DNA of 64,000 nucleotides from an uncultured delta proteobacterium (GCA_963737905.1 CAVTUQ010000026.1:32001-96000), one strand, 5' to 3'. Positions 9,929-55,471 are shown, numbered from the stretch's first letter. Numbers and translations are program-made. Notes: generated by a model not told the origin, from the letters alone.

Positions 9929-10065
9929 AGTGGATTTGTATCACATGCGCCAGATTCCCCCTTCTGCTCGACTGATGCGGCTAAACCATTGGGTTGAAAG
10001 GGAGCGGGCGGACCACGCGCCTCACTCAATCTAAGGCGACGATACGCGAAGGAGAATTAAATGAT

Positions 10066-20464: not shown

Positions 20465-20688
20465 AATACCAAATTGGGCTGCGAGGGTTGTGCGCGTCGG
20501 GTGCTTGCAAGGTATATGAGAGGAAAGAAAATGGCATAAAGGGTGCCAGCCAAACAAGCAGGCACATAGCCTCCAACTGATCCTTGACGGCAGTACTTCA
20601 ATTCAACTAAACATAGGCGACCATTCGAGTGGAATTTTAGACTGGACGAAACAATCCCGTGTTGCGGCGCGGCCGATGAGAGCTACAT

Positions 20689-21000
20689 GTGGATATTGAA
20701 GATATCAGGCGTAAGGTTACTGAGGGAAGGTACCCTATCTCTTTTACTCACACTGAAAAATTACGATTGAGAAGAATAAAAGCCGTGGACATTGAGCAGG
20801 CGGTAAAATCGGGTAATATCATCGAAGACTATCCCAATGATCCGAGGGGAGCCAGTTGTTTAATCCTTGGCCGTGTCGGCAACAGACCTTTACATATTCT
20901 CTTTGCCCAATTGGAAGCGCAAGAGATTCTTGTTGTCACTGCGTATGAGCCTGATCCGGAAGAGTGGGAAAATGATTGGCAAACAAGGAAGGCGAGGTGA
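20689..21000 (+). CDS. DUF4258-family protein (putative toxin)
   Basis: IIEDYPNDPRGASCLILG, RPLHI, VVTAYEPDPEEW. Confidence 0.85.
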   Translation: MDIEDIRRKVTEGRYPISFTHTEKLRLRRIKAVDIEQAVKSGNIIEDYPNDPRGASCLILGRVGNRPLHILFAQLEAQEILVVTAYEPDPEEWENDWQTRKAR

Positions 21001-21004
21001 GTTT

Positions 21005-21244
21005 ATGATTACGGAATGTTACTTCTGCAAGGGTAAAGTGGTCGAAGTGAAAACTGAAGTCGATTTTCGCTGGGGTAAGAAGCTCAAGGTTCTGAAAAAT
21101 GTTCCGGCGCGCGTTTGCCAACAATGTGGAGAGAAATACTTTGAAGCGACTATTTACAAGGCAATGGAGAGGCTTGTCATCCGTCGAGTAAAACCATCGG
21201 CCCGTATGAGTGTGGATGTAGTTCAATTTAAAGAAGCCGTATGA
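21005..21244 (+). CDS. YgiT/MqsA-type zinc-finger protein (putative antitoxin)
   Basis: CYFCKG ... NVPARVCQQCGEKYF. Confidence 0.85.
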   Translation: MITECYFCKGKVVEVKTEVDFRWGKKLKVLKNVPARVCQQCGEKYFEATIYKAMERLVIRRVKPSARMSVDVVQFKEAV

Positions 21245-21377
21245 AGCCAGAAACGCAAGAGTTGACCACCCAATGTTTACCGCTTGACGCTGACCCAACA
21301 CCTCCAATAGATATTACATGCAACCGTTGAGCTCATGAAAGCCGACGGGGTCATGACATCCGTTGAGAGCTAACTCT

Positions 21378-21420
21378 AAAGACTAGGCCCGGACTGGGTT
21401 TCCCCAGCCGGGCTTGCTTT
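21378..21420 (+). terminator. Terminator-like GC hairpin with T-rich tail immediately 5' of the first GAF kinase start
   Basis: gcccgg(a)ctggg-tttc-cccagccgggc followed by ttgcttt-ATG. Confidence 0.4.
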
Positions 21421-24400
21421 ATGAAAACTCCCTCTAAAAAACTTGCGCAGAAACCAAACACGAAGGTCCGCGCTACTTCAAACGCGGTGTCTATTGCGGA
21501 ACTAAAGAAGACCATCGCCGCGCAGGTGCAAGAGTTGCAACAGGCTGCTAAGCAGCAAGACGCGACCAGCGAAGTCTTGCGCATGATCGCCACCGCACCG
21601 GGGAACCTGCAGGGGGTGCTGGATGCTCTCGCAGAACGTGCCGCGCGTCTTTGCGAGTCCTACGACGCCGTTATCCAGCGTGTCGATGGTGATTTCTTGT
21701 TCCGGGCAGCCCATTTTGGTCCTGTGCCGGTGGGTGAAATTCGACCAATACCACTCACTCGCGAGCTCCCGTCCGGGCGGGCCATTGTCGACCGGCAGAC
21801 GGTTCATGTCGACGATGTTGTGTTGGAGATCGAGACTGAGTACCCAGATGTCGCAGAGATCCAAAAACGTAGCGGAAGTCGGACAGTCCTTGCCACGCCC
21901 TTACTGAGCCGGGGTGTTCCCATCGGGGTTATTAATGTCCGCCGCATGGAGGTTCAACGCTTCTCGGACAAACAGATCAAACTGCTCGAAACCTTCGCTG
22001 ACCAGGCCGTCATTGCCATCGAGAACGCGCGGCTTTTCCGAGAATTAAAGGAATCGTTGGCGCAGCAAACGGCGACGAGTGAAATATTGGGCGTCATCGC
22101 TAGCTCGCCGACGGATATTCAGCCGGTATTGGATGTCATTGCTGAGAACGCCGCGCGCATTTGTGGAACGTCTGATGTCTCCATCGTTCGCGTCGAGGAT
22201 GATGGCTATAGGGTCGTCGCGACTTACGGCTCTGCGCCCAACTGGACGTCCGGAGAAACCCGTCCCCTCGATCGCGGTTCCGTGGTTGGCCGTGCGATTG
22301 TCGACTCTGAGACGATACATATCGATGATGTCCGAGCAGTCGAAGAGGACTTTTGGAGCGCGGGTGCGGCACGAGCGGGTTTAAGAACCCTGGCCGCGAT
22401 TCCACTACTGCGCGAGGGAATCGCGATCGGTGCAATCTCGATCCGCCGCACGGAGGTTCGTCCTTTCTCAGAAAAACAAATCGGTCTTCTAAAAACCTTC
22501 GCCGACCAGGCCGTGATCGCCATCGAGAACGTGCGACTGTTCAAGGAACTGCAAGAGCTTAACGCAGAATTGCGCGAAGCCCTGGAGCACCAGACGGCAA
22601 CGTCCGAAGTGCTCGGCATCATCAGCCGCTCGCCGACCGACGTGCAGCCGGTGCTCGACGCCATCGTCGAGAGCGCCGCTCGGGTTTGCGGGATCGATGA
22701 TTTAGTGCTGCACATTCAGGAAGGGGACCGTCTTGTTTCGCGTGCTCATTTTGGCTCCATACCTGTGCCAAGCGGCCGCCTCGACATCGGCATGGATGAT
22801 TTACAATTTCGCTGGATGCGCGAGCACGGCACGCTTCACATTCCCGACGTTAACGAGCAGAACGACTTTCAAATCGTGAACATCAGTGGGTGGCGCAGTT
22901 TTTTGGCCGTTCCCCTACGTCAGCAGGAGGAACTCATTGGAGGATTGACCGCACGTCGCATCGAGGTGCGTCCCTTCACGCCGGCGCAGATCCGGCTACT
23001 TGAGACCTTCGCTGACCAGGCCGTCATCGCCATTGAGAACATACGGTTATTTCAAGAACTCAAAGAATCGTTGGAGCAGCAGACTGCAACAAGCGAAATT
23101 CTGGGCGTCATTGCCAGCTCGCCGACGGACATTCAACCGGTGTTAGACGTCGTCGCCGAAAATGCTGCACGACTGTGCGATGCCAGCGACGCGTTAATAT
23201 TTCGGGTGGACGGGGATATTCTTCGATTCGCGGCAAAATACGGTACCATGCCGGTCGCGGAGGCTAACCGTCCGATCGTTCGTGACACCCCAGGAGGTCG
23301 AGCCGTTGTTGACCGACAAACAATTCATGTCCGAGACCTCGCAGCTGAGATCGAAACTGAGTACCCGCAGTATGAGAACAGGAGTACTCGTACCGCACTC
23401 GCCACGCCTCTGCTTCGCGAGGGCATCCCGATCGGACTAATTTTTATTCGGCGGACCGAGGTACGGCCGTTTTCAGACAGACAGATCGCCTTGCTCAAGA
23501 CCTTTGCTGCTCAAGCGGTCATCGCCATTGAGAACGTGCGGTTGTTCAAGGAGATCCAGGAGCGCAACGCAGAATTGCGTGAGGCCCTGGAGCATCAGAC
23601 CGCAACCGCCGAGGTGCTGGGCATCATCAGCCGCTCGCCGACGGACGTGCAGCCGGTGCTCGACGCCATCGTCGAGAGCGCGGCGCGGGTTTGTGGAATT
23701 GATGACGTGATGCTGCGACTCCGCGAGGGGAACACAATGGTGTGCGCGGGCCCATTTTGGTCCTATACCTAACGTCCGTGCGTCGAGATCAGTAGTGAGG
23801 ATCCACGGTTTCACTGGATGCGTGAACATGGCACACTGCATATTCCTGACGTCCGCGCGCACAGAACGATTTTCTAACGTTGGGTTCCGTTACTGGCTTC
23901 CGCACCTACTTAGGCGCTCCCCTTCGCCAGCATGGGGAATTATTGGAGGATTGGGCGCGCGTCGGATCGAAGTGCGTCCCTTCACTCCGGCGCAGATCAA
24001 GCTCCTCGAAACCTTCGCTGACCAGGCGGTCATCGCCATTGAGAACGTGCGGCTGTTCCAGGAACTTAAGGAGTCGTTGGAGCAGCAAACCGCGACGAGT
24101 GAAATATTGGGCGTCATCGCTAGCTCGCCGACGGACATTCAGCCTGTGTTGGATGCGGTCGCGGCGAATGCCGCGCGGCTCTGCGATGCGAGCGATGCTT
24201 TGATTGATCGCGTCGATGGTGATGTCTTTGAGCATGTAGCGGTGTATGGCGCAATGCCGGTCGCGGGAAGCCGACGGCCTCTAACTCGTAGCACGCCCGC
24301 CGGCCGAGCCATCATCGACCGCAGAACCATTCACATTCATGATGTTGTGCCCGAGCTTGAAACAGAGTACCCGGAAGCCAAGGCGCGCCAGCAAGTTACA

Positions 24401-27400
24401 GGCACGCGCACTGTTCTTGTTACGCCATTGCTTCGTGAAGGAGTTGCGATCGGCACAATTCAGATTCGCCGATCGGAAGTTCGTCCTTTCTCGGAGAAGC
24501 AAATCGCCCTGCTCAAAACCTTCGCCGACCAGGCAGTGATCGCGATCGAGAACGTGCGGCTGTTCAAGGAGATCCAGGAGCGCAACGCAGAATTGCGCGA
24601 GGCGCTGGAGCATCAGACCGCAACGGCCGAGGTGCTCGGCATCATCAGCCGCTCGCCGACGGACGTGCAGCCGGTGCTCGACGCTATCGTCGAAAGCGCG
24701 GCAAGGGTTTGCGGGATCGATGATATGATCTTGCGACTCTGCGAGGGCAACACCATGGTCGCGCGCGCACATTTCGGTCAGATGGCCCTTCCTGAAGGCG
24801 AAATTGGTACAGATGCGCCGCCGGTTCTGTTGGGTGCGGGAGCACGGCACGCTCCACGTTCCTGATATCCGTACGCAGAATGATATTCCCGTTTGTGTTT
24901 CCTGGCACGTTGCGCACTTTTTTAATAGTTCCCCTTCGTCAGCATGGACAACTCATTGGAACCCTGACGGCGCGTCGCATCGAGGTGCGTCCTTTCACCC
25001 CGGTGCAGATTAAGCTGCTCGAAACCTTCGCCGATCAAGCCGTCATCGCCATTGAGAACGTGCGGCTGTTCCAAGAACTAAAAGAGTCTTTGGAGCAGCA
25101 GACGGCGACGAGTGAAATTCTGGGCGTCATCGCAAGCTCGCCGACGGATATCCAGCCCGTATTGGACACCATCGCTGAGAATGCTGCGCGCGTGTGCGGC
25201 TCATACGACGCGCTGATTCGACTAGTCGAGGGGGATAAGCTGCGACTGGTGGCGCACTATGGCCCCTTGGAACCGGGTTTCGATCTCGAGCAAGCCTTGA
25301 CGCGCGACTCCGTCGGCGGCCGGGCTGTCCTTGATCGCGAGCTAATCCACATTGAAGATTTGATGGCCGTTGCTGCAACCAAGTTTCCAGAGGCGGTCAG
25401 CGCTGTCGAGCGTATGGGTGGTCGCACGATACTTGCCGCGCCCTTACTACGCGAGGGCGTTGCGATCGGGGTGATTTTTATTCGTCGAACCGAGGTACGT
25501 CCGTTTACGGACAAGCAGATCGCGCTTCTCAAAACCTTTGCTTCTCAGGCGGTGATCGCTATCGAGAACGTGCGATTGTTCAAGGAGATCCAGGAGCGCA
25601 ACGCAGAATTGCGCGAGGCCCTGGAGCATCAGACCGCAACAGCCGAGGTGCTCGGTATCATCAGCCGCTCGCCGACGGACGTGCAGCCCGTGCTCGACGC
25701 CATTGTCGAAAGCGTGGCAAAGGTTTGTGGGATTGATGACGTGGGGCTGCGACTTCACGAGGGGAACACTATGGTTTCGCGGGCACATTTTGGTCCCATG
25801 CCCATCGTCCGCGTCGAGATCAGCATTGATGAGCCACACTATCGCTGGATGCGCGAGCGTGGCACGCTCCATATTCCTGACATCCGCGCGCAGAACGATT
25901 TCCCGACCGTAGGCTCCGCCGGCGGCTGGCGCACCTATTTAGCCGCTCCCCTTCGTCAGCAGGGGAAACTCATCGGCGCACTGAACGCGCGCCGCACCGA
26001 AGTACGCCCCTTCACGCCGGCGCAGATCAAACTACTTGAAACCTTCGCTGATCAAGCCGTCATAGCCATTGAAAATGTCCGCCTGTTCAAGGAACTGCAG
26101 GAACGTAACCACGACCTCACCGAGGCGCTGGAGCAGCAGACCGCCACGAGCGAGATTCTGCGCGTGATCGCCAGCTCGCCGACCGATGTGCAACCGGTGC
26201 TAGATGTCGTGGCGGAGAATGCAGCGCGACTTTGCGACGCGTCCGACGCTTTGATCCTTCGCGTCGCTGGCGACACCCTTCAGACGGTGGCGAGATTTGG
26301 ACCAATTGCAAGTGCTGCTTCCAGGGTAATCAGTCGCGGCTTTCCAGGGGGCCGCGCTGTGATCGACCAGCAGACCATACATGTCCATGACATGGCTGCA
26401 GCAGTCGAAACCGAGTTCCCGGAGGCTCGTATCCTTCAACAACTTTCGAGCGCTCGAACTGTTCTCGCTACACCATTACTCCGAGAGGGTATTGCAATCG
26501 GCTGTATTACGATTCGACGACCCGAGGTCCATCCCTTTAGCGACAAGCAAATCTCCCTGCTTAAAACCTTCGCCGACCAGGCCGTGATCGCCATCGAGAA
26601 CGTGCGGTTGTTTAAAGAATTGGATGAGCGAACCAACGAATTGACACGCTCGGTGGGCGAGCTCAAAGCCCTCGGCGAAGTCGGTCAAGTGGTAAGCTCG
26701 ACTCTGGATCTCGAAACCGTGCTGACGAGAATCGTCTCCCACGCGGTTCAGTTGAGCGGCACCGACGGCGGGGCGATTTACGAATACGACGAGCAATCGG
26801 AAGAGTTTCTTCTGCGTGCAACCGATCATATGGAGGACGAACTCATCAACGCGCTGCGTGCTAATCCGCCTCGGCTAGGAGATGGTGTAGTCGGACGGGC
26901 AGCGGCCAGCTCGTGAACCGGTCCAGGTCCCCAATATCTTGGAGGAGCGCGGCTTACGCGCCGCGCATGCGCCAATTGCTGGAACGTTTCGGTTTCCGCG
27001 CCAGCCTGGCCGTTCCGTTGCTGCGCGAAGACCACATCATCGGTAGTCTAGTGGTAAGGCGAAAATCGATTGGCGACTTTCGCCCCGAAGTTATCGAGCT
27101 TTTGAAAACCTTCGCCACCCAGTCAGTGTTAGCGATCCAAAACGCGCGGCTGTTCCGTGAGATCGAGGATAAGAGCCGCCAGATCGAGGCCGCTAACCGG
27201 CACAAATCTGAATTCCTGGCCAACATGTCCCACGAACTACGCACCCCGCTCAATGCGATTATCGGGTTCTCCGAAGTCTTGGGAGAGAGGCTTTTTGGCG
27301 AGCTGAACGAGAAACAAGCCGAGTACACAGACGACATTCTCACTTCCGGTCGCCATCTTTTGTCCCTCATCAATGAGATTCTCGATCTCTCAAAGGTCGA

Positions 27401-27887
27401 GGCCGGGCGCATGGAGCTGGAGCTGGCTACATTCGATCTGCCGCTGGCGATAGACAATGCGCGAACCTTCGTACGCGAGCGCGCCACCAGGCACGGCATT
27501 AATCTCGACGTTACAGTCGACGAGCGCCTTGGGGATTTCAGCGGCGATGAGCGCAAGATCAAGCAGATTCTACTCAATCTGCTTTCCAATGCCGTTAAGT
27601 TCACGCCGGAGGGGGGACGGATCGGCATTAACGCCAGGCAGACCGACGGCGTAGTGGAAATCTCCGTCACTGACACAGGTATTGGCATCGCCCCGGAGGA
27701 CCAGCCCAAGATCTTCGAGGAGTTTCGCCAGGTGGGCTCCGACTATGTTCACAAAAGCGAGGGGACAGGACTGGGGTTAACCTTGGCCAAGAAGTTCGTC
27801 GAGCTGCACGGAGGAAGGATTTGGGTAGAGAGCGAAGTAGGGAAGGGCTCCACCTTTATCTTCACCCTACCTATCAACCTGGTGTGA
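21421..27887 (+). CDS. Giant cytoplasmic sensor histidine kinase (HK1), 11 tandem GAF domains plus HisKA-HATPase, about 2150 aa when frameshifts are repaired
   Basis: Repeated [43 protein letters not shown]; H-box [12 protein letters not shown]-box [21 protein letters not shown]; split over ORFs 21421, 23795, 24880, 26913. Confidence 0.9.
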
Positions 27888-27922
27888 AGGGTGAGGGGTA
27901 AGGGGTGAGGAGAAAAACTGCA

Positions 27923-28086
27923 GAAATCCGAAGCACGAAATCCGAAATTCGAAACAAATTTAAAACGAGAAAGAAACGAGACAATGTTCCAAAGAGAGTG
28001 ATCGGATTCCGAGTTTTGGATTTTCTTCGTTTTCCGGTTTTGGGTTCCGTTTGTTTCGGATTTCGAAATTCGGATTTCGGAATTTT
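27923..28086. repeat. Palindromic element CGAAATCCGAAATTCGAAACAA..TTCGGATTTCG after HK1; second copy after HK2
   Basis: Heptamer-based inverted arms with an inner AT-rich stem. Confidence 0.8.
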
Positions 28087-28271
28087 AGTACGGGGACTTG
28101 GCGCCTTAGCGCCCCTTCGACGGAGTTTATCCTGAGCTTAGCCGATGGACTCAGGACATGCTTAGCGGGAGAAAAATCCGAGTCCGAAAATGAATGATCG
28201 CGCGCAAAGCATACCCTAAGCGAAGTGCGCTCTGCTATGAAGTTGGAACGTCGAATCGGAGGAAACATAAT

Positions 28272-28502
28272 ATGTCGCAAACGATAGCTATTAAATTGTC
28301 GGTGCCGGATGATCTAGCCCGTTTTTGTTTACCAGACGGTGTTAACGCCCGACTCCAAGAACTGTTAGACCGCCAAGATAGGGGCCAGCGACTGACCCCG
28401 GCGGAGCGAAAGGAAGCAGAGGGTCTGGTGAATCTGGCCGAGCTGCTTTCGCTGCTGCGGCTGCGCGTTGAACGAATCGGCAGTCGGCGGACAAAGAGCT
28501 GA
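28272..28502 (+). CDS. Small antitoxin-like partner of the HNH nuclease
   Basis: RLQELLDRQ..LTPAERKEAEGLV; stop overlaps HNH start (TGATG); GGAGG RBS. Confidence 0.75.
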   Translation: MSQTIAIKLSVPDDLARFCLPDGVNARLQELLDRQDRGQRLTPAERKEAEGLVNLAELLSLLRLRVERIGSRRTKS

Positions 28503-28918
28503 TGAGCGATGTTCCCGCTCGATTGCGCCGCTTGGTCTTGCGACGTGCGGGTGCCCGATGCGAATACTGTGGATTGTCACAGGAAGGCCAAGAGGCAAGT
28601 TTCCACGTGGATCATATTGTGCCCAAGGTGGCAGGGGGTCCGACTCTTGCGGACAACCTGGCCCTTGCCTGCGTCTCGTGTTCCTTACGAAAGGAAGCGC
28701 GACGCTCCGCCGTCGATCCGATGACCGGTCGCAAGGTCGCTCTATTCCATCCGCGCCGTCAGCGATGGCGACATCACTTTCGCTGGGCGGGCGTTCGTAT
28801 CTTGGGTTTGACTCCGACCGGGCGGGCAACTGCTTCCGCTTTGCGGATGAATCGTCCGCTCATTCTATCAATACGCGAGGAGGAGGCACTGCGTGATCGG
28901 CATCCTCCACCGAACTAA
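28502..28918 (+). CDS. HNH endonuclease
   Basis: CEYC, FHVDHIVP, NLALACVSC, LFHPRRQRW..HF, TPTGRAT. Confidence 0.9.
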   Translation: MSDVPARLRRLVLRRAGARCEYCGLSQEGQEASFHVDHIVPKVAGGPTLADNLALACVSCSLRKEARRSAVDPMTGRKVALFHPRRQRWRHHFRWAGVRILGLTPTGRATASALRMNRPLILSIREEEALRDRHPPPN

Positions 28919-29005
28919 ACGAGGCGATCTACGGGTGAGTCAGGTTTTCTCAGGCAACTTTCCATTGAGAGGTTTCCTGGTAAAGCCAGTAAGATTGATG
29001 GTAGG

Positions 29006-29226
29006 TTCGCGCAAAGACGCAAAGGGGTGCCAAGTTCGGAGTATTAGGAAAAAGAATTTTACTTTGCGAGGTTAGCGTGCTGGGCGCGAGATAAATCCGA
29101 ATCCGCAAAACATGTCCTGAGACCAAGTCGAAGGGACGCAAAGACGCTCATTTGTGACAGAGAGTGAAATTAGCAAGATCATCCTTAAGTCTTATAAACT
29201 TTGCGCCTTAGCGTCTTTGCGGGAGA
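29006..29226. repeat. Nested REP-like palindromes, CGCAAAG/CTTTGCG family (also about 16669-16728 and 47888-47966)
   Basis: cgcgcaaagacgcaaag...ctttgcgccttagcgtctttgcggga. Confidence 0.7.
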
Positions 29227-29241
29227 ATTATCCGAACTCTT

Positions 29242-29622
29242 ATGGCTAACGAACTTATTTTGATCATCGAAGATAACGAGAAGAACCGGAAGCTCGTGCG
29301 CGACGTGCTCCAGGTCAAGGGCTACAAAACCATCGAGAGCGAGACGGCTGAAGATGGTCTCAAGCTCGCGCTGGAAAAATCTCCTGCCCTCGTCCTCATG
29401 GACATCCAGCTTCCCGGAATGGATGGAATTACGGCTCTGAAGGAGCTCCGGGCCGACTCACAAACGAAGAGTATACCTGTCATTGCGATCACCGCATCGG
29501 CCATGACCAACAACCGCCAGGCGATGTTGGCTGAAGGGTTTGACGGCTATCAGAGTAAGCCGATCAGCGTTAAGGACTTTCTCGGAGAAGTAGAAAGAGT
29601 GCTCGCTAGCCACGCAAACTAA
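29242..29622 (+). CDS. Single-domain response regulator (DivK-like receiver)
   Basis: IIEDNEKN, LMDIQLPGMDG, AITASAM, SKPIS. Confidence 0.92.
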   Translation: MANELILIIEDNEKNRKLVRDVLQVKGYKTIESETAEDGLKLALEKSPALVLMDIQLPGMDGITALKELRADSQTKSIPVIAITASAMTNNRQAMLAEGFDGYQSKPISVKDFLGEVERVLASHAN

Positions 29623-29722
29623 AAAATTCTAACTTGCGCAAGATCTAAGCGTAAAAAACGGATTGTGAAACTCGATAGCTTCAATCCAGAATCTAGGTCG
29701 AAGTCGAAAATCCAAAGTGGAA

Positions 29723-30001
29723 CTACTGCATCCCTAGCCGTTGCTCGATATGATCCAGGCGGTCCTCGAGAATCCGCTGTTTGAAGATAGCTGCGCGTAA
29801 GCATTGATTAATGAGCGTCTGGTACTTGCCGCCCTCTTGCTTCGCTTTTTCTTTGAAATAGTTCACGACATCCCCGTCCAAGCGAATATGAACATTGATC
29901 TTAACATTGGGCATTGCAATGTCTTCCTCCTGATAGGTACGGGGGCGTGGAATTTGGCGGAATCGACTGCTAGTCACTTTTTTCCTTTTTTGCTTTCTCA
30001 T
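29723..30001 (-). CDS. brnA: BrnA-family antitoxin
   Basis: KINVHIRLDGDVVNYFK..GKYQTLINQCLR. Confidence 0.88.
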   Translation of the reverse strand: MRKQKRKKVTSSRFRQIPRPRTYQEEDIAMPNVKINVHIRLDGDVVNYFKEKAKQEGGKYQTLINQCLRAAIFKQRILEDRLDHIEQRLGMQ

Positions 30002-30260
30002 ATTCCCTCCGTTCACGGCGTCGTTCTTGCGCCGAAATTAGCCTGAGTCTGTCAACCGAAAGGGTATAAACGACGGTTATAATACGACCGCTTTTCATTT
30101 TGCCGGTGCGCCAAAGACGCTGCTCGGTGCGCGACGAATGAGCCAGATCCTCCTTTTCGATCCCATCAGTGTCGGTGAAGACCTGTAAAGCCTCCGCAAA
30201 GGAGATTCCGTGTTTCTCGGTGTTGGTCGCGTCTTTGGCATCGTCCCATTCCCATTCCAT
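29970..30260 (-). CDS. brnT: BrnT-family toxin
   Basis: EWDDAKDATNTEKHGISFAEA, RLISA..RERREY; overlaps brnA. Confidence 0.9.
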   Translation of the reverse strand: MEWEWDDAKDATNTEKHGISFAEALQVFTDTDGIEKEDLAHSSRTEQRLWRTGKMKSGRIITVVYTLSVDRLRLISAQERRRERREYEKAKKEKSD

Positions 30261-30560
30261 CTATGTACATATTGTATCCATGCGGACGACGGGATACAAG
30301 CAATCGGTTTTTTTGCATTTCCTTTGTGTCGTTCGCCTTTGCCGGTAACCGCGACGAGTGAGACGCTCAAGCACCCGGCCATCGCTCACACGCTCCTTTA
30401 TGCACGTTACGGCCGGCCTCTGGATCGTAACCTTCTGCAGGGTTTCCTTGACGACCGTAACCACCTGGCGTAAAAGACAGCTCAGCCGCTGGGTGAGCCA
30501 TCTGCGATCGCTCACATGGTAAGTTGGCCGTGCGGCGCATATCGATCTCCGTCATTTTTT

Positions 30561-33500
30561 ATGGCTTCCACCACCAAAAAGGACACTAAGAAATCAAAGG
30601 CAAAACCGCAGCGCCCCTCCGTTAAAGAGGCCAAGCTGGTCCGGGAGAACAAGGAAATAAGGCGGGAGCGCGACGAGTCGCTCGAACGGGAAGCAGCGAC
30701 CAGCGACATCCTTCGGATGATCGCCAACTCGCCAGCGGAACTTCAGCCAGTGCTCGATGCAATTGCCGAGCGAGCTGCAAGACTGTGTGAAGCAGAAGAT
30801 GCTGCCATTTTTCGAGTGGATGGCAATTCTTACCGCCGTGCAGCCCACTTTGGACCAGTTTCCATGGCAACTGTTTTCGGTGAGGGCCGCGTTATTGATC
30901 GCGATACGCCACCGGGTCGAGCGATTGCCGACCGGCAAACGATCCACGTCCACGACCTTCAGGCCGCCGGAGCTGAATTTCCGGGTGCCAAGACCCGTGG
31001 AATTGCAATGGGCCTCCGTACGGTGCTCTCCGCACCGTTACTCCGTGAAGGTATTGCCATTGGTGCTATTCATATCCGCAGACGAGAGATCCGTCCGTTC
31101 TCGGATAAGCAAATTAAATTGCTGGAAACCTTTGCCGCCCAGGCCGTCATCGCCATCGAAAATGCCCGGCTGTTCCAAGAGTTTAAAGAGTCGTTGGAGC
31201 AGCAGACAGCCACGAGCGAGATTCTCGGTGTCATCGCCAGTTCGCCGACGGACATCCAGCCGGTGCTGGACGCCATCGCTAAGAGTGCCGGACGCTTGTG
31301 TAACGCAAAAGACGCAGTGATTCGATTCGTCGAAGGGGATGTGCTCCGATTGGCAGCTCACCAAGGACCCATTCCATTTTTTGGGGCGGCCCAAATACCG
31401 ATTAACCGTGCTTCAGTAACAGGCCGAGCCGTTGTCGAGGGTCTACCGGTTCATATTGAGGACTTTCTGTCTGTAGCCGCGACTGAGTTTCCCGAGCTTC
31501 TCAACGCCGGCGTTGAGCGAGAAGGTGATCGAACCCAACTGGCTGTCCCACTTATGCGCGAAGGTGTTGCGATTGGAGCGATTCTCATTCGCCGAATCGA
31601 AGTTGATCCTTTCACCGAAAAACAAATCGCTCTCGTAAAAACCTTCGCCGCTCAAGCCGTAATCGCCATCGAGAATGTCCGGTTGTTCAAGGAGATCCAG
31701 GAGCGCAATGCGGAATTGCGCGAGGCTCTTGAGCATCAGACCGCAACCTCAGAGGTGCTCGGCATCATCAGCCGCTCGCCCACAGACGTGCAGCCGGTTC
31801 TCGACGCCATCGTCGAGAGCGCGGCGCGGGTTTGTGGAATCGATGATGTGCTACTGCGACTCCGCGAGGGCAACGCTACGGTTCCGCGGGCTCATTTTGG
31901 TCCCATAGCCATTGGCCACCTCGAAATCAGCATTGATGCGCCGCAGTATCGCTGGATGCGCGATCATGGCGCGCTCCATATTCCCGATGTCCGCGCGCAA
32001 GACGAATTTCCAGTGATCGGTTCCCGCGGCAACTTTTGCAGCTACTTGGCCGCCCCCCTTTGTCAGCATGGGGAACTCATTGGAGTATTGAACGCGCGTC
32101 GCATCGAAGTCGCGCCCCTTCACCTCAGCGCAGATTAAACTATTGGAAACATTCGCCGACCAGGCGGTCATCGCCATCGAGAACGTGCGACTGTTCAAAG
32201 AACTCAAGAATCGTTGGAGCAGCAGACGGCGACCAGTGAGATATTGGGCGTTATCGCTAGTTCGCCGACGGACATTCAGCCGGTTTTAGATGTTGTCGCA
32301 GAAAATGCAGCGCGTCTCTGTGACGCCACTGATGCTGCAATCATTCGTGTTGAGGGCGAATCCTTAAAGGCTGTGGCTAATTACGGATCGCTGTCCGCCG
32401 CTTCTGACCCCCCATTCGACCGATTCTCTATACCTGCCCGAGCCATCATTGACCGGCAAACTATTCACATTCATGACCTTGCGGCAGTGCCGGAAGATGA
32501 GTTGCGAGCACGCTTTGCTCGAAGTCTCGGCGTTCGTACGGTACTTGCAACGCCGCTGCTCCGTGAGGATGTTTCCATTGGATCTATTCTGATCCGTCGG
32601 ACGGAGGTCCGTCCGTTCTCAGAAAAGCAGGTCGCTCTACTGAAGACTTTCGCCGCCCAGGCCGTGATCGCTATCGAGAACGTGCGGCTGTTCCAAGAAC
32701 TCAAGGAGTCGCTGGAGCAGCAAACTGCCACGAGTGAAATCTTGGGGGTGATCGCAAGCTCGCCGACGGAAGTTCAGCCGGTTCTTGATGCCATCGCCCG
32801 GAACGCAGCGCGGGTATGCGGATCCGATGACGCGACGATTCGCCTGCTTGAAGGTGAGGAGATGATCCCGGCGGCCCATTTCGGGTCGATCCCAATGCCT
32901 GGACCTGGCCGGGGAACCCTAGGATGGCGCTCGGTCGGCAACGAGGCTTTGCTCCAGCGCAGGACGATCCACATTCCAGACCTTCAGGCGGAGGCTGAGA
33001 GGTTCCCGGACAGCTCTCACATAGGGCGTGGTATTCGAACCTTTCTTGTCACCCCGTTGCTGCGTGAGGGGAGCGCCATCGGGGTCATCGCCATCCGGCG
33101 CAAGGAGGTCAAGCCTTTCACTGATAAGCAGGTGGTTTTGTTAGAGACATTTGCTTCACAGGCTGTGATTGCCATCGAGAACGTGCGGCTGTTCAAAGAA
33201 TTGCAAGAGCGCAATGCGGAATTGCGGGAGGCGCTGGAGCACCAGACGGCGACAGCCGAAGTGCTCGGCATCATCAGCCGCTCGCCCACCGACGTGCAGC
33301 CGGTCCTCGATGCCATCGTCGAAAGCGCCGCGCGAGTCTGCGGGATCGATGACGTGGTGTTGCGACTGGTTGAGGGACGCGCGACGGTGGTACGCGCTCA
33401 TTTTGGTCCCATACCCGTTGCTGGCCGCGAGATCAGTATTGAGGAGTTGCAGTTTCGCTGGGTTCGCGAGCACGGCGCCCTGCATGTTCCCGACGCCCGG

Positions 33501-36099
33501 GCGCAGAACGAATTTACGATGGTAAGCGCGCGAACCTTCTTGATAGTCCCGCTTCGTCAGCAGGGAGAGATGATCGGGGTGCTGGTCGCGCGGCGAATCG
33601 AAATCCATCCGTTTACCCCGGCGCAAATCAAACTGCTCGAAACCTTCGCTGACCAGGCGGTCATCGCCATTGAGAACGTGCGGTTGTTCCAAGAACTTAA
33701 GGAGTCGTTGGAGCAGCAAACGGCGACCAGTGAGATTCTTGGTGTGATCGCCAGCTCCCCGACAGATATACAGCCGGTGCTTGACGCGGTCGCGGAAAAC
33801 GCCGCGAAAATCACAGGATCAGACGATGCCCTCATCTACCGGGTGGACGGCGATAATTTGAGACGGGCCGCGAAGTATGGACCCAGAGAATGGGGACCGC
33901 TCGGAGAAATTGGACAACGGCTCACTCGTGGGACGCCTGCTGGAAGGGCCGTTATTGACCGGCAGGTAGTACATGTCCCGGATCTTCTCGCCGCGCAATC
34001 GGAGTTTCCCGACGTCAGACGACATCTGCAGTACGGCAGTCGGACCGTCCTGTCGACGCCTTTGCTGCGCGAGGGTGTGCCAATTGGGGTGATTCATATG
34101 CGCCGCACCGAGGTCCGACCTTTCTCGGACAAGCAAATCGCCTTGCTCAAGACCTTTGCTTCACAAGCCGTCATCGCCATCGAGAACGTCCGTCTGTTCC
34201 AAGAACTCAAGGAGTCGCTGGAGCAGCAAACCGCGACGAGTGAAATATTGGGTGTCATCGCCAGCTCGCCGACGGACATCCAGCCGGTGCTGGATGCGAT
34301 TGCGGCAGAATGCAGCGCGGTTGTGGAGCTGACGATGCAACGATTCGACTCGCTCGAGGGTGAAGAGATGGTCCTGCGCGGCTGCATTTCGGAGCGATAG
34401 CTATCCCGGGAACGGCGGCGACGAACCTCAGGACTCCGTTCGGTGGGCAACCAGCGTTAGTACGCGCAAGACGATCCACATTCCCGACCTTCGAGCGCGA
34501 GTCAGAACGAATTTCCCGGATAGCTCGCAATGGGTACCGGCGTTCGCGCACTTTTCTTGTGACGCCACTGCTACGTGAAGGGACAGCGATTGGTGTGATG
34601 ATCGATTCGCCGCATCGGAGGTGCGGCCTTTTACCGATAAGCAGATCGAGCTGCTCGAAACCTTCGCCGATCAGGCCGTGATCGCCATCGAGAACGTGCG
34701 GTTGTTTAAAGAATTGGACGAGCGAACCAACGAATTGACGCGCTCGGTGGGCGAGCTCAAAGCCCTCGGCGAAGTCGGTCAAGCGGTAAGCTCGACTCTG
34801 GATCTTGAAACCGTGCTGACGCGAATCGTTTCCCACGCTGTTCAGTTGAGCGGCACCGACGGCGGAGCGATTTACGAATACGACGAGTCCTCGGAAGAAT
34901 TTCTCCTGCGCGCCACCGATCACATGGAGGAAGAACTCATCAACGCTCTGCGTGCTAGTCCGCCGCGTCTGGGAGATGGAGTGGTCGGCCGGGCAGCAGC
35001 GAGTCGCGAACCGGTCCAGGTCCCCAATATCCTGGAGGAGCGCGGCTACGCGCCGCGCATGCGCCAGTTGCTGGAACGTTTCGGTTTCCGCGCCAGCCTG
35101 GCCGTTCCGTTGCTGCGCGAAGACCACATCATCGGTAGTCTAGTGGTAAGGCGAAAATCGATTGGCGACTTTCGCCCCGAAGTTATCGAGCTTTTGAAAA
35201 CCTTTGCCACCCAGTCTGTGTTAGCGATCCAAAACGCCCGGCTGTTCCGCGAGATCGAGGAAAAGAGCCGCCAGATCGAAGCGGCCAACCGGCACAAGTC
35301 GGAATTTCTCGCCAACATGTCCCATGAGCTCCGCACGCCGCTCAATGCCATCATCGGCTTCTCGGAAGTCTTGCGGGAGAGACTGTTTGGCGAGCTGAAC
35401 GAAAAACAAGCCGAGTACACCGACGACATTCTCACCTCCGGTCGCCATCTGTTGTCGCTAATCAATGAGATTCTCGATCTCTCCAAGGTCGAGGCCGGGC
35501 GCATGGAGCTGGAGCTGGCAACGTTCGATCTGCCGTTGGCAATCGACAATGCGCGCACCTTCGTGCGCGAGCGGGCCACCAGGCACGGCATCAATCTCGA
35601 TGTCTACGTTGACGAGCGGCTTGGAGACTTTGTCGGCGACGAGCGGAAGATCAAGCAGATACTTCTCAATCTGCTTTCCAACGCCGTGAAGTTCACGCCG
35701 GAGGGAGGACGGATCGGAATCAGCGCCAGGCAGACTGACGGCGCAGTGGAAATCTCGGTCAGTGACACGGGCATCGGCATCGCCGCGGAGGACCAGGCAA
35801 GAATTTTCGAGGAATTTCGCCAGGTGGGATCCGACTATGCGCACAAAAGCGAGGGGACAGGACTCGGGTTAACCTTGGCCAAGAAATTTGTCGAACTGCA
35901 TGGTGGCAGGATCTGGGTGGAGAGCGAAGTAGGGAAGGGATCGACATTTACCTTCACATTGCCGATCAACCCTCACCCATTCCCTCTCCCAGAGGGCGAG
36001 GGCTTAGAAAGTAAGGGAGGAAAATTCGAAACACGAAATCCGAAATTCGAAACAATTTCAAATGAGCAAGCAAAAACACAATGTTCCAATCAATCCTGA
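30561..36099 (+). CDS. Second giant cytoplasmic sensor histidine kinase (HK2), 9 tandem GAF domains plus HisKA-HATPase, about 1850 aa when repaired
   Basis: Same repeated junction motifs and H/N/G boxes as HK1; split over ORFs 30516, 32214, 34621; tail runs into repeat DNA. Confidence 0.9.
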
Positions 36100-36188
36100 T
36101 TCAGATTCGGCGCTTTTGGATTTTCCGAGTTTGAGATTTATTTGGCTGCGGTTTGTTTCGGATTTCAATATTCGGATTTCGGATTTTA
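35968..36188. repeat. REP-like CCCTCACCC..GAGGG hairpin plus second copy of the CGAAATCCGAAATTCG element
   Basis: ccctcacccattccctctcccagagggcgaggg; arms match 27923-28086. Confidence 0.75.
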
Positions 36189-36280
36189 ATCGTGTTGAGC
36201 TTGGCGCTTGGCGGGAGATATATCCGGGTTTGGAAAGGAGGATGTCGCGCAAAGATGATACTTACAGAAGGGAGATTGAT

Positions 36281-36691
36281 ATGAAAATCGACGGCGGTTG
36301 CCATTGCGGCAATATTACCTATACCGCGGAAATCGATCCCGAAAAAGTCGGTATATGCCATTGCACGGACTGCCAGACACTTTCCGGGACAGCATTTCGC
36401 ACGAGTGTGCGCGCAAACAACGACGCGTTTCAGTTGAAGGGCGGTCCGCCCAAGATCTATGTCAAGACCGCTGAAAGCGGCGCCAAACGCGCCCAGGCAT
36501 TCTGTCCGGAGTGTGGCACGCCGATCTATTCGGCGGCGGTGAAAGACCCGGATACTTTCAATATCCGCGTCGGGACCATACGGCAGCGGGCCGAGCTGAG
36601 GCCCAGGTCGCAAGGCTGGTGCCGGTCCGCACGAGACTGGGTGAATGATCTGCAATCGATAAAGCAGTTTGATAAACAGCGGGGCGGTTAA
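36281..36691 (+). CDS. GFA/CENP-V family protein
   Basis: GGCHCG, CHCTDCQ, FCPECGTP. Confidence 0.92.
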   Translation: MKIDGGCHCGNITYTAEIDPEKVGICHCTDCQTLSGTAFRTSVRANNDAFQLKGGPPKIYVKTAESGAKRAQAFCPECGTPIYSAAVKDPDTFNIRVGTIRQRAELRPRSQGWCRSARDWVNDLQSIKQFDKQRGG

Positions 36692-36756
36692 GGCAGTGGG
36701 TTGCGCTGGCCTACTTGGCCACTCTCGCTAAGCCAAAATCCGTTCGGAAATTAGCC

Positions 36757-36812
36757 CGATCGACCGTTTACACTTCAGGCGAAAGCCTGGGCTGTGAAGG
36801 GCACGGTTTGGC
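36757..36812 (+). pseudogene. Tiny 3' remnant of a methyltransferase like 11718-12482
   Basis: PFTLQAKAWAVKG; DNA resembles about 12430-12480. Confidence 0.7.
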
Positions 36813-36907
36813 GTTAGGGATGGTGATCAAGTGCTCTACGGTAGGGCGTTTTCGAGGTTGACACCTGAAATCCGTGCTCATAGACTTTGACTACTGAGGG
36901 AACTGAT

Positions 36908-37189
36908 ATGCGTTCACGTGCAGGGTCTCGACGTTTACAAAAGAAAAATGGGCGAGTAGAGAAAACGATACGAGAGTGGGAAAGATCATATCCGGATATG
37001 TGGATTCTCTTAGAGGTGACGGAACAAGTCAATAATGAACCGGTGCGCGGAAAAGTGATCGCGACTGCCGGTGATCCGGAGGAGTTTCAAACGGAATGGA
37101 AAAGACACCGGGGAAAAGGTGTCCTCACAATGCTGACCTACGGTCCTCCGCTCGAGCCTGGTCCGGCGGTGGTGGCCAGTGCCACGTAG
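36908..37189 (+). CDS. Small hypothetical protein partnered with an aspartyl protease (DUF5678-like role)
   Basis: YPDMWILLEV..GKVIA; overlaps the downstream protease gene. Confidence 0.6.
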   Translation: MRSRAGSRRLQKKNGRVEKTIREWERSYPDMWILLEVTEQVNNEPVRGKVIATAGDPEEFQTEWKRHRGKGVLTMLTYGPPLEPGPAVVASAT

Positions 37190-54571: not shown

Positions 54572-54992
54572 TGCTGTTTTCACCACGGGAGCCTCCTGGA
54601 ACAAAACCAGGATCGACGGCGTCTCTGATCCGCGAGGACGGAATCGAACATGGAGGTAAGATCGCCGCCGTGCAGACAATCTGTTCCTCAAGCCGGAGAA
54701 AAAATAGCTCCTCCCGCAGGAACGTAGCCAGGATTCTGTGTCGTTCGATCTGGGGTACGTTCCTGCGAGAACCGGGTCGGACCTGCGCAGAGTAAAAGTC
54801 CTTTGTGCGTCTAACCGGTTTCACTTTCTTGTATGCCACCAGGTGCGGCAATGGATAGAAGTAATGGTTTCCGGAGCGGTTGACAGCGAAGTTCAGGGTC
54901 GGATAGGTTCTAGAACCGATCCGATATCCTCCGTTTTCCAGTCTCCCCGAGCCAAGTGACGGTTCTCTTAGAATGGATTTAGGAGAACTCTG

Positions 54993-55232
54993 ATGGGATG
55001 GCTTAGCGGAGAAAAGAAAAGTGAGAATTCACGAGCTACTGAACTGAGCCAGCTCAAAGAAGAGTTGCGTGGCGTCTCTGAAAAACTCGAATCCCGCGAG
55101 AGCGAACTGGCCGAAGCCTTGGAGCAGCAGACCGCAACAAGTGAGATCTGCGCATGATCGCGGGAACGCCCACCGATATTCAAATAGTGCTCGACGCCGT
55201 GACCGAGAGTGTCGCTCGGCTTTGTAACGCTA
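54993..55232 (+). pseudogene. N-terminal remnant of a third GAF-array kinase
   Basis: AGGAG RBS; [15 protein letters not shown], then after a frameshift RMIAGTPTDIQIVLDAVTESVARLC. Confidence 0.75.
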
Positions 55233-55471
55233 CAGTGGAATCCTTTGTGTGGGCGGATGAGGTGATTAGCAATGGTGAGTGGCCAGAGGTCTAGTGGAGC
55301 TCAGGGGAGGAAAAGCTGCGTAGTGGGACTTTTGCTCGGGTAGGTTATCTGGGCGCGGGAGACCCCGTCAGCGGGGGTTATCGCATCGAGGCGTTCCGCC
55401 AGGGACTAAAACAGCTCGGCTACATCGAGGGGAAAAATCTTATAATCGAGTATCGGTTCGCCGGGGCTAGG

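What the first reader, a model, noticed from the sequence alone, without database searches (positions are those of the whole stretch)
21421..36099. Two giant GAF-array kinases with constant junctions and hypervariable cores: candidate recombinable modular sensor system
Seen: 20 GAF modules of about 500 nt in two genes (11 + 9). Each junction ([44 protein letters not shown], about 150-180 nt) is near-invariant even at DNA level, while the ligand-pocket cores between junctions differ strongly. There are no TM segments. The two genes have different module numbers and order but the same output. Some cores are internal duplicates: HK2 modules 5 and 8 share the DDATIR..LEGEEM..TIHIPDL..FPDSS pattern, and HK1 modules 4 and 6 share [20 protein letters not shown] third N-terminal fragment sits at 54993. 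Established: GAF domains bind small ligands and signal through coiled-coil helices. Inference: the junctions act as homologous-recombination handles that shuffle, add or delete sensing modules, giving a combinatorial cytoplasmic multi-input receptor. I know of no characterised system with this architecture.
Basis: partly seen in the sequence, partly recalled or inferred. Interest (0 to 1): 0.88.

Follow-up and report, generated by a model that had tools for sequence, protein, structure and literature searches.

The report
Two frameshifted giant multi-GAF sensor kinases
These are two copies of a very common but unstudied type of soil-bacterial sensor kinase carrying 11 and 9 GAF sensing domains; the constant joints between domains are a protein helix kept by selection, not DNA handles for reshuffling.

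Summary
The 11 + 9 GAF modules, the shared kinase output (93% aa identity) and the third remnant near 54972 are real. Two points of the observation fail. First, both genes are split by small indels (HK1 into 4 ORFs, HK2 into 3). Second, the junctions are near-invariant only as protein. Junction DNA identity averages 75% (61-96%), and exact runs have a median of 12-13 nt.

Synonymous divergence in junctions equals that in cores (pS 0.72/0.75, 0.53/0.51, 0.71/0.73). It is also the same within an array, between arrays and between genomes, so there is no sign of gene conversion.

The junction folds as one continuous 46-residue helix joining two GAF domains (AlphaFold pLDDT 87), as in PDE2A, PDE5A, CyaB2 and phytochromes. 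Linker lengths are 9, 16 or 23 residues in 275 of 277 cases, so the heptad register is kept.

Cores are not hypervariable. They fall into conserved types shared across genomes. Module order is poorly conserved, so the arrays are evolutionary mosaics.

The family is very large (9,899 clusters at E<=1e-30; intact proteins up to 3,673 aa). It is often followed by a REC gene and a REC-cyclase gene. The frameshifts are probably long-read assembly errors. This is an ordinary member of an abundant, uncharacterised family.

The parts
21421..27887 (+). HK1: a multi-GAF sensor histidine kinase of about 2155 codons with 11 GAF folds, HisKA and HATPase_c. It reads as 4 ORF pieces: 21421-23772, 23795-24865, 24880-26916 and 26913-27887.
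   Evidence: ORFs. Pfam GAF, HisKA and HATPase_c. Motif positions. Internal core types F B A x A x C B A.
23596..24085 (+). Type B module of HK1 with about 4 small indels (+1, +2, +2, -1) relative to 5 other B modules. This is the first frame break of HK1.
   Evidence: DNA alignment of 6 B modules; ORF ends.
24829..24886 (+). Two single extra bases (24829 and 24886) that break the frame in B module 24614. A 94.5%-identical public contig lacks both. Without them the frame is open from 24086 to 26916 (942 codons).
   Evidence: read laying tables 4 and 8, run X5 record 19; in-silico frame test.
26640..27887 (+). Terminal GAF, HisKA and HATPase_c output of HK1, with a frame break near 26905. It is 93% aa identical to the HK2 output.
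   Evidence: blastn 26455-28085 against 34547-36187: 85.7% over 1654 nt with 17 gaps.
27923..28085 (.). Copy of a dispersed hairpin element of about 165 nt, directly after the HK1 stop.
   Evidence: blastn; also matched inside the HK1/HK2 3' similarity.
29212..29619 (+). Single-domain response regulator (REC), the likely partner of HK1. Orthologues at 81-86% aa identity follow GAF-array kinases in 7 related loci and on contig C2 of this genome.
   Evidence: Pfam; tblastn on loci; own genome C2 at 84%.
29726..30385 (-). BrnA-like antitoxin gene (29726-30037) and a small upstream ORF (30098-30385) inserted between the REC gene and HK2.
   Evidence: Pfam. The same pair (88% and 62.6% aa) flanks a kinase twice in L025.
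30516..36099 (+). HK2: a multi-GAF sensor histidine kinase of about 1860 codons with 9 GAF folds, HisKA and HATPase_c. It reads as 3 ORF pieces: 30516-32138, 32214-34400 and 34621-36099. The listed ORF runs on into the hairpin element.
   Evidence: Core types [N=A] C x A C B L x. Frame path.
34227..34700 (+). Type C module of HK2 with about 10 small indels relative to its paralogue at 32721. It is the most damaged module.
   Evidence: DNA alignment A1.
36021..36187 (.). Second copy of the hairpin element of about 165 nt, at the 3' end of HK2.
54972..55294 (+). Remnant of an array N-terminus: a coiled-coil leader, then '..[11 protein letters not shown]', a frameshift, and the first ~49 residues of a GAF ending in a stop. 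It lies directly upstream of an ABC_sub_bind-HisKA-HATPase_c kinase (55295-57082).
   Evidence: Stop-to-stop ORFs; Pfam.

Best explanation
The locus holds two paralogous, soluble, dimeric-type sensor histidine kinases of a Candidatus Binatia-like soil bacterium. Each has a long string of GAF domains (11 and 9) in front of a HisKA-HATPase_c transmitter.

The constant 'junction' is the protein-coding sequence of one continuous alpha-helix. This helix runs from the last helix of one GAF, through the linker, into the first helix of the next GAF. Strong purifying selection on the protein keeps it constant, because the helices must stay in heptad register along the whole rod so that conformational signals, and probably dimer contacts, can pass from GAF to GAF and into the kinase. 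It is not kept constant at the DNA level.

The cores belong to at least 14 old, conserved module types (A, B, C and so on). Type B is the most conserved and alternates with other types in HK1. Over long evolutionary time the arrays have gained, lost and reordered whole modules. There is no sign of ongoing or programmed recombination.

The likely output is phosphotransfer to the adjacent single-domain REC protein. In many relatives and on contig C2 of this genome, a REC-class III nucleotidyl cyclase is a further likely target.

The frameshifts that split both genes are most likely consensus indel errors of a long-read assembly rather than biology.

Shown here: anatomy, conservation statistics, predicted fold, family size and operon context. 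Inferred: dimerisation, signal relay along the helices, ligand binding by each module, and phosphotransfer partners.
For: Anatomy. The H-box '[12 protein letters not shown]' is visible in the translations.

Protein-level, not DNA-level, conservation. Aa identity is 0.75-0.77 in junctions and 0.40 in cores. Nt identity is 0.71-0.72 and 0.50 (48 intact modules of this genome). Window junctions average 0.75 nt identity, with median exact runs of 12-13 nt.

Synonymous sites. pS for junction/core is 0.716/0.751, 0.532/0.513 and 0.712/0.733, while pN is 0.093/0.315, 0.037/0.195 and 0.086/0.297 (400, 400 and 295 between-source pairs of types A, B and C).

No homogenisation within an array or a genome. 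No tract of >=85% identity between modules.

Structure. AlphaFold2 of a B+A di-module (31-row alignment) gives pLDDT 87.3 and pTM 0.65, with helix 148-193 spanning the junction. The top Foldseek hits are the tandem GAFs of PDE5A (3lfv), PDE2A (3ibj) and CyaB2 (1ykd), and the GAF-PHY of Cph2 and other phytochromes, at E about 1e-16 to 1e-17.

Heptad phasing. Linkers from RLF to QTAT are 9 or 16 codons in 15 of 15 readable window junctions. They are 9 (85), 16 (183) or 23 (7) residues in 275 of 277 linkers of the wider set.

Module types are shared across sources: A has 133 modules from 62 sources, B has 76 from 40, and C has 25 from 21.

Family size. 31 of 31 related genomes have matches, with open frames up to 2530 aa. 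There are 69,056, 34,874 and 9,899 cluster representatives at E<=1e-3, 1e-10 and 1e-30. 11 of the 12 top representatives scanned carry 8-14 GAF matches with HisKA and HATPase_c, and 6 of those 11 also carry REC.

Operon. Of 45 arrays with a kinase output and >=4.5 kb of downstream sequence, 27 have a REC gene and 19 a cyclase domain within 5.5 kb. 5 of 5 scanned second genes are REC+Guanylate_cyc.

Assembly-error reading. A related contig lacks the two frame-breaking bases at 24829 and 24886. Other genes in the window are also split.
Against: Synonymous codon identity in junctions is somewhat above the codon-usage expectation (0.46 against 0.34, and 0.51 against 0.385; cores 0.36 against 0.34). 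Four-fold differences are lower in junctions (0.568 against 0.685). This small excess is unexplained. It is the same within and between genomes, so I attribute it to position-specific codon preference, but rare conversion is not excluded.

Some junction pairs do share exact runs of 25-48 nt (18 of 225 pairs), so occasional unequal crossing-over there is physically possible.

Indels are clustered (4 in module 23596, about 10 in module 34227) rather than spread evenly. This fits real decay of single modules as well as it fits local consensus trouble.

No raw reads or bridging contigs were available. No ligand, dimer or phosphotransfer was tested. The recalled cNMP-binding NKFDE-type motif is absent from 410 of 410 modules, so the link to the cyclase is context only.
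Confidence: 0.75

Rival explanations
1. The junction DNA acts as homologous-recombination handles, and the arrays are actively and adaptively reshuffled to give a recombinable sensor repertoire.
For: Module number and order differ between paralogues and genomes. Adjacent modules rarely keep collinear nearest relatives (8/208), whereas halves of one core do so more often (96/331). 18 of 225 junction pairs in the window share exact runs of >=25 nt. A synteny-supported counterpart (the HK-REC-HK locus L018) shares the N-terminal module of HK2 at 77% but not the internal order.
Against: Junction synonymous sites are as diverged as core sites. There is no excess similarity within an array or a genome. 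Median exact identity is 12-13 nt, below the roughly 25 nt that RecA-type recombination needs (this figure is recalled, not tested). No tract of >=85% identity links modules. No recombinase, integrase or reverse transcriptase was found among 73 ORFs of the window. Breakpoints between domains are what selection for folded domains gives under any mechanism.
Confidence: 0.07
2. The two genes and the remnant at 54972 are real pseudogenes: decaying surplus copies of an over-expanded paralogous family.
For: Indels cluster in a few modules (4 in 23596, 2-3 in 24614, about 10 in 34227), while neighbouring modules and the 1.5-kb output are clean. An undoubted truncated remnant exists at 54972-55294. 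The genome holds about 65 modules in 8 or more arrays, so redundancy is plausible. The REC gene is separated from HK1 by 1.3 kb, and a toxin-antitoxin pair sits before HK2.
Against: Frame breaks track the assembly type: 35/149 against 1/129 and 0/50. ~98-99%-identical short-read contigs show 1-nt indel differences outside the arrays. A related contig is in frame at two of the break sites. Apart from the indels, the broken modules keep the conserved residues.
Confidence: 0.2
3. The arrays are an assembly artefact: collapsed or chimeric repeats.
For: Repeats invite misassembly. Completeness is 87% and contamination 6.7%. Short-read contigs of public runs carry many odd joints (table 5).
Against: Cores are only about 50% identical at the DNA level, so each module is unique for an assembler. 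Intact arrays of the same build, with open frames of 1851-2530 aa, occur in several other genomes and in this one and in thousands of database proteins. The joints have sides of 20-45 nt and come from runs dominated by relatives, which the tool itself flags as unreliable.
Confidence: 0.04

Closest known systems
Tandem GAF-A/GAF-B regulatory modules of PDE2A, PDE5A and PDE6 and of the cyanobacterial adenylyl cyclase CyaB2
   Same: Two GAF folds are joined by one long connecting helix. These are the top structural matches of the predicted di-module (3lfv, 3ibj, 1ykd; E about 1e-17). The context also links to class III cyclases, because REC-cyclase genes lie downstream in 19 of 45 arrays.
   Different: The known proteins have two GAFs, not 9-15. 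Sequence identity is 14-17%. The recalled cNMP-binding NKFDE-type motif is absent from 410 of 410 modules. The output here is a histidine kinase.
Phytochrome and cyanobacteriochrome photosensors (GAF-PHY; multi-GAF cyanobacteriochrome arrays)
   Same: Both are strings of GAF-fold domains on a helical spine feeding a histidine kinase. They give structural hits (4bwi, 8w26, 5lly) and the best, though weak, sequence hit (8w26, E 6e-8). The term 'GAF arrays' is used for cyanobacteriochromes (bioRxiv 10.1101/2022.09.22.509050, passages seen).
   Different: The host here is a non-cyanobacterial soil lineage (record titles). No bilin-lyase context or chromophore motif was tested. Identity is 12-16%. 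The arrays here are longer and are built from types such as A and B that are not described in that literature.
Signalling helix (S-helix) of Anantharaman, Balaji and Aravind 2006 (PMC1592074; abstract and passages seen)
   Same: A conserved helical coiled-coil segment with heptad periodicity lies between signalling domains. An 'ERT'-type signature follows the RLF motif in the last junction of arrays (window: '[10 protein letters not shown]'; 45 of 78 array-final modules). The long linkers carry 'ERN'.
   Different: That paper separates the S-helix from 'inter-GAF domain helical linkers'. No S-helix profile was run here. The short 9-residue linkers lack the signature.
DosS/DosT (DevS) tandem-GAF redox and gas sensor kinases
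   Same: They are soluble GAF-GAF-kinase sensors and give weak sequence hits (2vzw at 5.8e-5; 4ynr, 2w3d and others).
   Different: They have two GAFs. Haem ligation was not tested here, and identity is low.

Membership tests
Two-component sensor histidine kinase (HisKA + HATPase_c) | HisKA dimerisation/phospho-acceptor domain with the conserved H-box histidine | tested here: met
   PF00512 at 83.2 and 84.2 bits (cut-off 26.9) in both genes. 'SHELRTPL' is visible in both translations.
Two-component sensor histidine kinase (HisKA + HATPase_c) | HATPase_c catalytic domain | tested here: met
   PF02518 at 121.9 and 122.1 bits (cut-off 26.4).
Two-component sensor histidine kinase (HisKA + HATPase_c) | Intact reading frame | tested here: not met
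   HK1 is in 4 ORFs and HK2 in 3 as assembled. These are probably assembly indels.
GAF domain (Pfam PF01590/PF13185/PF13492) | Profile match above the gathering score for each module | tested here: met
   GAF matches of 72-201 bits, far above the cut-offs, in six of the seven ORF pieces, plus a partial-GAF match of 37.9 bits in the piece 26913-27887. The predicted fold has a GAF-type sheet and helices.
cNMP-binding GAF (PDE/CyaB2 type) | NKFDE-type ligand motif (recalled from memory, written as N[KR]..F...DE) | tested here: not met
   0 of 410 intact modules and 0 of 13 window modules match. The motif is recalled, so this is only a rough test.
S-helix (Anantharaman et al. 2006) | Helix of about 40 residues between signalling domains with a central 'ERT' signature | tested here: inconclusive
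   The helix is predicted. An ERT-like triplet occurs in 45 of 78 array-final linkers, 'ERN' occurs in the 16-residue linkers and none in the 9-residue linkers. No profile comparison was run.
Cyanobacteriochrome / phytochrome | Bilin-binding cysteine and chromophore pocket; photoreceptor lineage | not tested
   There is only fold-level likeness and one weak sequence hit. A conserved Cys exists at 'AARLC', but its equivalence was not examined.
Programmed DNA-rearrangement or diversity-generating systems (shufflons, DGRs, cassette conversion) | Dedicated recombinase or reverse transcriptase, and near-identical DNA repeats at the exchange sites | tested here: not met
   No such Pfam family was found among 73 window ORFs. 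Junction DNA is 61-96% identical with median exact runs of 12-13 nt. Synonymous sites are saturated.

The most novel reading that the evidence does not exclude
Giant GAF arrays are combinatorial cytoplasmic integrators. They are built from a limited alphabet of old, conserved GAF module types (at least 14), each with its own ligand. The modules are strung in strict heptad register on one continuous helical spine and, in many lineages, wired to a REC-nucleotidyl cyclase. The array would thus convert many metabolic inputs into one second-messenger output. The repertoire evolves by whole-module exchange at the helix-coding boundaries. The highly conserved type B module, which alternates with variable modules in HK1, would be a relay or spacer rather than a sensor.
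Probability: 0.2. Interest if true: 0.6.

Novelty: new member of a known kind. Interest (0 to 1): 0.3.

Why it matters
The specific claim of a recombinable sensor system does not hold, so the finding is far less exceptional than it was rated. What remains is useful background. Soil lineages such as Binatia and Rokubacteria/Methylomirabilota carry thousands of soluble kinases with 8-15 or more GAF domains, and no member was found described in the papers searched here. First, linker lengths follow a strict 9 + 7n rule in 275 of 277 cases. Second, a REC gene plus a REC-cyclase gene recurs downstream. These raise concrete questions: how a signal passes through ten domains, what the conserved module types bind, and whether the output is a cyclic nucleotide. 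The case is also a caution that frame breaks in repeat-rich genes of long-read MAGs are mostly technical.

Tried and rejected
- Complex prediction on two copies of the di-module returned 'no answer'. It is not used either way.
- The look-up of sequencing runs listed no RNA holder. The best DNA holders share only 0.22 of the words.
- Read laying had only short Logan contigs, and no piece bridges even one full module pair. Its joints have sides of 20-45 nt in runs full of relatives, so they say nothing about variants in module order. Parts without cover were not interpreted.
- Rfam found no family in 20400-37000.
- No NCBIfam model reached its cut-off for the kinases or neighbours, apart from a YgiT-type zinc-finger domain in 20864-21241.
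- The same-genus genomes G001 and G002 gave only 70-78% nt matches to the arrays on short contigs. The test of orthologues with identical module order could therefore not be done at strain level.
- The PDB sequence search gave only weak hits.
- The 'HKout' query was cut in the wrong frame, and its identities were discarded.
- The per-position frame path is coarse, and its 26745 boundary is an artefact. The break near 26905 was read from the translations.
- Before de-duplication, the nearest-neighbour tests were inflated by loci fetched twice. One search drops the 64 modules of the unnamed loci L002-L010 and L090-L101 (346 of 410 kept).
- Supplements of papers were closed and were not needed for any claim.

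Full report
WHAT IS THERE

The region 21421-36099 holds two same-strand genes for soluble multi-GAF histidine kinases. As assembled, neither is one ORF. HK1 reads as 21421-23772, 23795-24865, 24880-26916 and 26913-27887. HK2 reads as 30516-32138, 32214-34400 and 34621-36099.

Pfam finds GAF in all seven pieces. It finds HisKA and HATPase_c in the last piece of each gene.

The junction motif occurs 9 times in HK1 and 7 times in HK2. Module spacing is 474-534 nt.

A hydropathy scan finds no TM-like stretch. The outputs are 93% identical (299/323 aa). The N-terminal parts are 57% identical.

The 'third fragment' is real. At 54972-55294 there is a coiled-coil leader, the motif '..[11 protein letters not shown]', a frameshift, and about 49 residues of a GAF ending in a stop. 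It lies directly upstream of an unrelated ABC_sub_bind-HisKA-HATPase_c kinase.

THE FRAME BREAKS

An alignment of the six B-type modules of the window shows that the breaks are 1-2 nt indels. There are four in module 23596, two or three in 24614, and two at the end of 31737. Module 34227 has about ten indels relative to its paralogue 32721. One more break lies near 26905.

Four lines of evidence point to assembly error rather than biology:
- Other genes of the window are also split: 827-2149, 2271-3512, 9985-10858, 49247-50540, 51669-53025 and 53268-54656.
- Public short-read contigs about 98-99% identical to the window differ from it by single-base indels at 29640, 30152 and 30307, outside the arrays (run X1).
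- A 94.5%-identical contig (run X5) lacks one base at 24829 and one at 24886. Leaving these two bases out opens the frame from 24086 to 26916, which is 942 codons.
- Frame-broken modules number 35 of 149 in MAGs named 'MFD..bin' with 'contig_N' contigs up to 4 Mb. That the first group are long-read assemblies is my inference from the names and contig sizes.

The clustering of indels in a few modules is not explained by this reading. It keeps real decay of single modules open, at about 0.2.

IS THE JUNCTION CONSTANT AS DNA?

It is not. In the window, the 75 nt from the Q of the QTAT motif are 0.757 identical on average (0.613-0.96; 120 pairs of 16 junctions). The 78 nt ending at RLF are 0.749 identical (0.615-0.923; 105 pairs of 15 junctions, because one junction is out of frame). 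The longest exact in-register run has a median of 13 and 12 nt. Runs of >=25 nt occur in 13/120 and 5/105 pairs.

Over the 48 intact modules of the whole genome:
- Aa identity is 0.77 and 0.75 in the two junction halves against 0.40 in cores.
- Nt identity is 0.71 and 0.72 against 0.50.
- Four-fold third positions differ in 0.568 of junction sites (14112/24839) against 0.685 of core sites (20457/29886).

Within one core type and between different sources, Nei-Gojobori proportions are as follows:

| Type | Pairs | pS junction/core | pN junction/core |
|---|---|---|---|
| A | 400 | 0.716/0.751 | 0.093/0.315 |
| B | 400 | 0.532/0.513 | 0.037/0.195 |
| C | 295 | 0.712/0.733 | 0.086/0.297 |

The mild codon-identity excess in junctions (0.46 and 0.51 observed against 0.34 and 0.385 expected) is not a conversion footprint. 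Junction four-fold differences are 0.60/0.55 for modules of one array, 0.58/0.55 for different arrays of this genome and 0.58/0.57 for this genome against other genomes.

blastn of the whole locus against the genome finds only two outside stretches at >=85% identity. One is the output region, 26455-28085 against 34547-36187 (85.7%, 1654 nt, 17 gaps). The other is a 243-nt upstream piece shared with contig C2.

WHAT THE JUNCTION IS

AlphaFold2 on a B+A di-module (window 22540-23610, with 30 relatives) gives pLDDT 87.3 and pTM 0.65. Residues 148-193 form one unbroken helix that covers '..[47 protein letters not shown]'. A short break and the next helix of the following GAF come after it.

The best structural matches are the tandem GAFs of PDE5A, PDE2A and CyaB2, and the GAF-PHY pairs of phytochromes. 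In these proteins a long connecting helix joins two GAF folds. That this helix forms the dimer spine is established knowledge recalled here, not tested.

The linker between RLF and QTAT is exactly 9 or 16 codons in 15 of 15 readable window junctions. In the wider de-duplicated set it is 9 (85), 16 (183) or 23 (7) residues in 275 of 277 linkers. Lengths differing only by sevens mean that the helical register is conserved along the whole array. This explains why the junction is frozen as protein.

The last linker of arrays carries an 'ERT'-like triplet. In the window this is '[10 protein letters not shown]'. It is found in 45 of 78 array-final modules. The 16-residue linkers carry 'ERN'. This recalls the S-helix of Anantharaman et al. 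2006 (PMC1592074; passages seen), although that paper sets inter-GAF linkers apart from the S-helix.

THE CORES

I extracted 536 modules in 112 arrays from this genome and 87 fetched loci; 410 have intact frames. At 50% core identity they fall into 54 clusters. Type A has 133 modules from 62 sources, B has 76 from 40, C has 25 from 21, and D and E have 20 each.

HK1 reads F B A x A x C B A internally. HK2 reads [N=A] C x A C B L x, where x marks a frame-broken module. By motif and alignment the broken modules are types B, B, B and C.

11 of 13 intact window cores have a closer relative in another genome (0.59-0.89) than in their own genome. The cores are therefore diverse between types but conserved within types. 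They are not hypervariable. Several core positions are near-invariant across all types: H, D, R, P, G and R at alignment columns 90, 93, 120, 126, 135 and 141.

MOSAIC EVOLUTION

Arrays hold 2-15 motif-bearing modules in many different orders. After dropping loci fetched twice (346 of 410 modules kept), the nearest relatives of two adjacent modules are themselves adjacent in only 8 of 208 cases. The figures are 8 of 90 at >=70% identity and 8 of 23 at >=80%. By contrast, the two halves of one core share the same nearest relative in 96 of 331, 82 of 175 and 45 of 81 cases.

The one synteny-supported counterpart, the HK-REC-HK locus L018, shares the first module of HK2 at 77% but not the internal order.

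Whole modules have thus been gained, lost or exchanged over long time spans. It does not need special DNA handles, since selection removes chimeric domains whatever the mechanism.

FAMILY AND CONTEXT

The best-matching record titles are Candidatus Binatia MAGs and MAGs labelled 'uncultured delta proteobacterium'. Weaker relatives are Rokubacteria/Methylomirabilota, Betaproteobacteria, Acidobacteriota and others.

All 31 of 31 related genomes searched have matches, with open frames up to 2530 aa. This tally includes two genomes marked unpublished, G006 and G012. This genome alone has about 65 modules on 8 contigs.

Against 1.84 billion cluster representatives, the di-module finds 69,056, 34,874 and 9,899 proteins at E<=1e-3, 1e-10 and 1e-30. 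The top 150 are 628-3673 aa long. Of the 12 scanned, 11 show 8-14 GAF matches with HisKA and HATPase_c, six of them with two REC domains as well.

Downstream of the kinase there is often a single-domain REC gene. It is 81-86% identical to window 29212-29619 in seven loci and 84% identical on C2 of this genome. A REC + class III cyclase gene often follows (5 of 5 scanned). Of 45 arrays with a kinase output and >=4.5 kb of downstream sequence, 27 have REC and 19 have a cyclase domain. In the window, HK1 has only the REC gene, 1.3 kb downstream, and HK2 has neither.

The recalled cNMP-binding motif is absent from all 410 modules.

LITERATURE

Five full-text searches found no paper on such non-photoreceptor GAF arrays. 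The nearest are the S-helix paper and work on cyanobacteriochrome 'GAF arrays' (bioRxiv 10.1101/2022.09.22.509050, passages seen). Subscription journals are not covered, so this is not proof of absence.

VERDICT

The recombination-handle mechanism is not supported. The locus is a pair of probably mis-assembled but otherwise ordinary members of a very large, uncharacterised family of multi-GAF sensor kinases. The conserved junctions reflect a heptad-phased inter-domain helix.

Noticed in passing
window 27923-28085 and 36021-36187: A dispersed element of about 165 nt with long terminal inverted repeats sits right after both kinase genes. It folds as a hairpin at -48.9 kcal/mol, z -2.06. blastn gave 12 and 9 matches in this genome, self-hits included. 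It also matches at about 80% on many contigs of G001, G002, G004 and G013. It looks like a MITE or REP-type repeat. The listed HK2 ORF reads through into it.
   Followed up: partly
L016, L017, L021, L033, L064 and own genome C2:101121-102701: There is a recurrent operon: GAF-array kinase, then a single REC gene, then a REC + class III nucleotidyl cyclase gene. 19 of 45 arrays with enough downstream sequence have the cyclase. This suggests a cyclic-nucleotide output for the family. The window's own locus lacks the cyclase gene.
   Followed up: partly
window 20864-21241: A small ORF with a YgiT/MqsA-type zinc finger (NCBIfam TIGR03831, 56.3 bits) lies just upstream of HK1. A 72% aa homologue lies just upstream of the array kinase in L033. 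21002-21244 is 88% identical in nt to the region upstream of an array on C2. It may be a conserved upstream partner gene.
   Followed up: partly
window 827-2149, 2271-3512, 9985-10858, 49247-50540, 51669-53025, 53268-54656: These are runs of short overlapping same-strand ORFs with partial Pfam domains (Pyr_redox_3, SBP_bac_3, ABC_sub_bind, SGL). They look like further genes split by indels.
   Followed up: partly
window 29726-30385 (-) and L025: A BrnA-like antitoxin gene with a small partner ORF sits between the REC gene and HK2. The same pair (88% and 62.6% aa) occurs twice in L025, on either side of a related kinase.
   Followed up: no
all modules, alignment columns 32, 90, 93, 120, 126, 135, 141: A cysteine in 'AARLC' is nearly always present at the start of each GAF (pairwise identity 0.88). 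The residues H..D, R, P, G and R are near-invariant inside the cores of all module types. This points to a shared pocket or fold feature across types.
   Followed up: no
own genome contig C2, arrays at about 104560-107755 and 115128-120888: One pair of modules in this genome has 99.1% identical core DNA. Judging by their printed ends, they are probably module 4 of one C2 array and module 0 of the neighbouring C2 array. This would be a recent duplication between two arrays about 7 kb apart, the only such case seen.
   Followed up: no
window 54972-57082 and 57347-58738: The array remnant abuts a kinase with a periplasmic-type ABC_sub_bind domain, followed by a sigma-54 activator response regulator. 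The remnant may mark an old deletion or fusion event.
   Followed up: no
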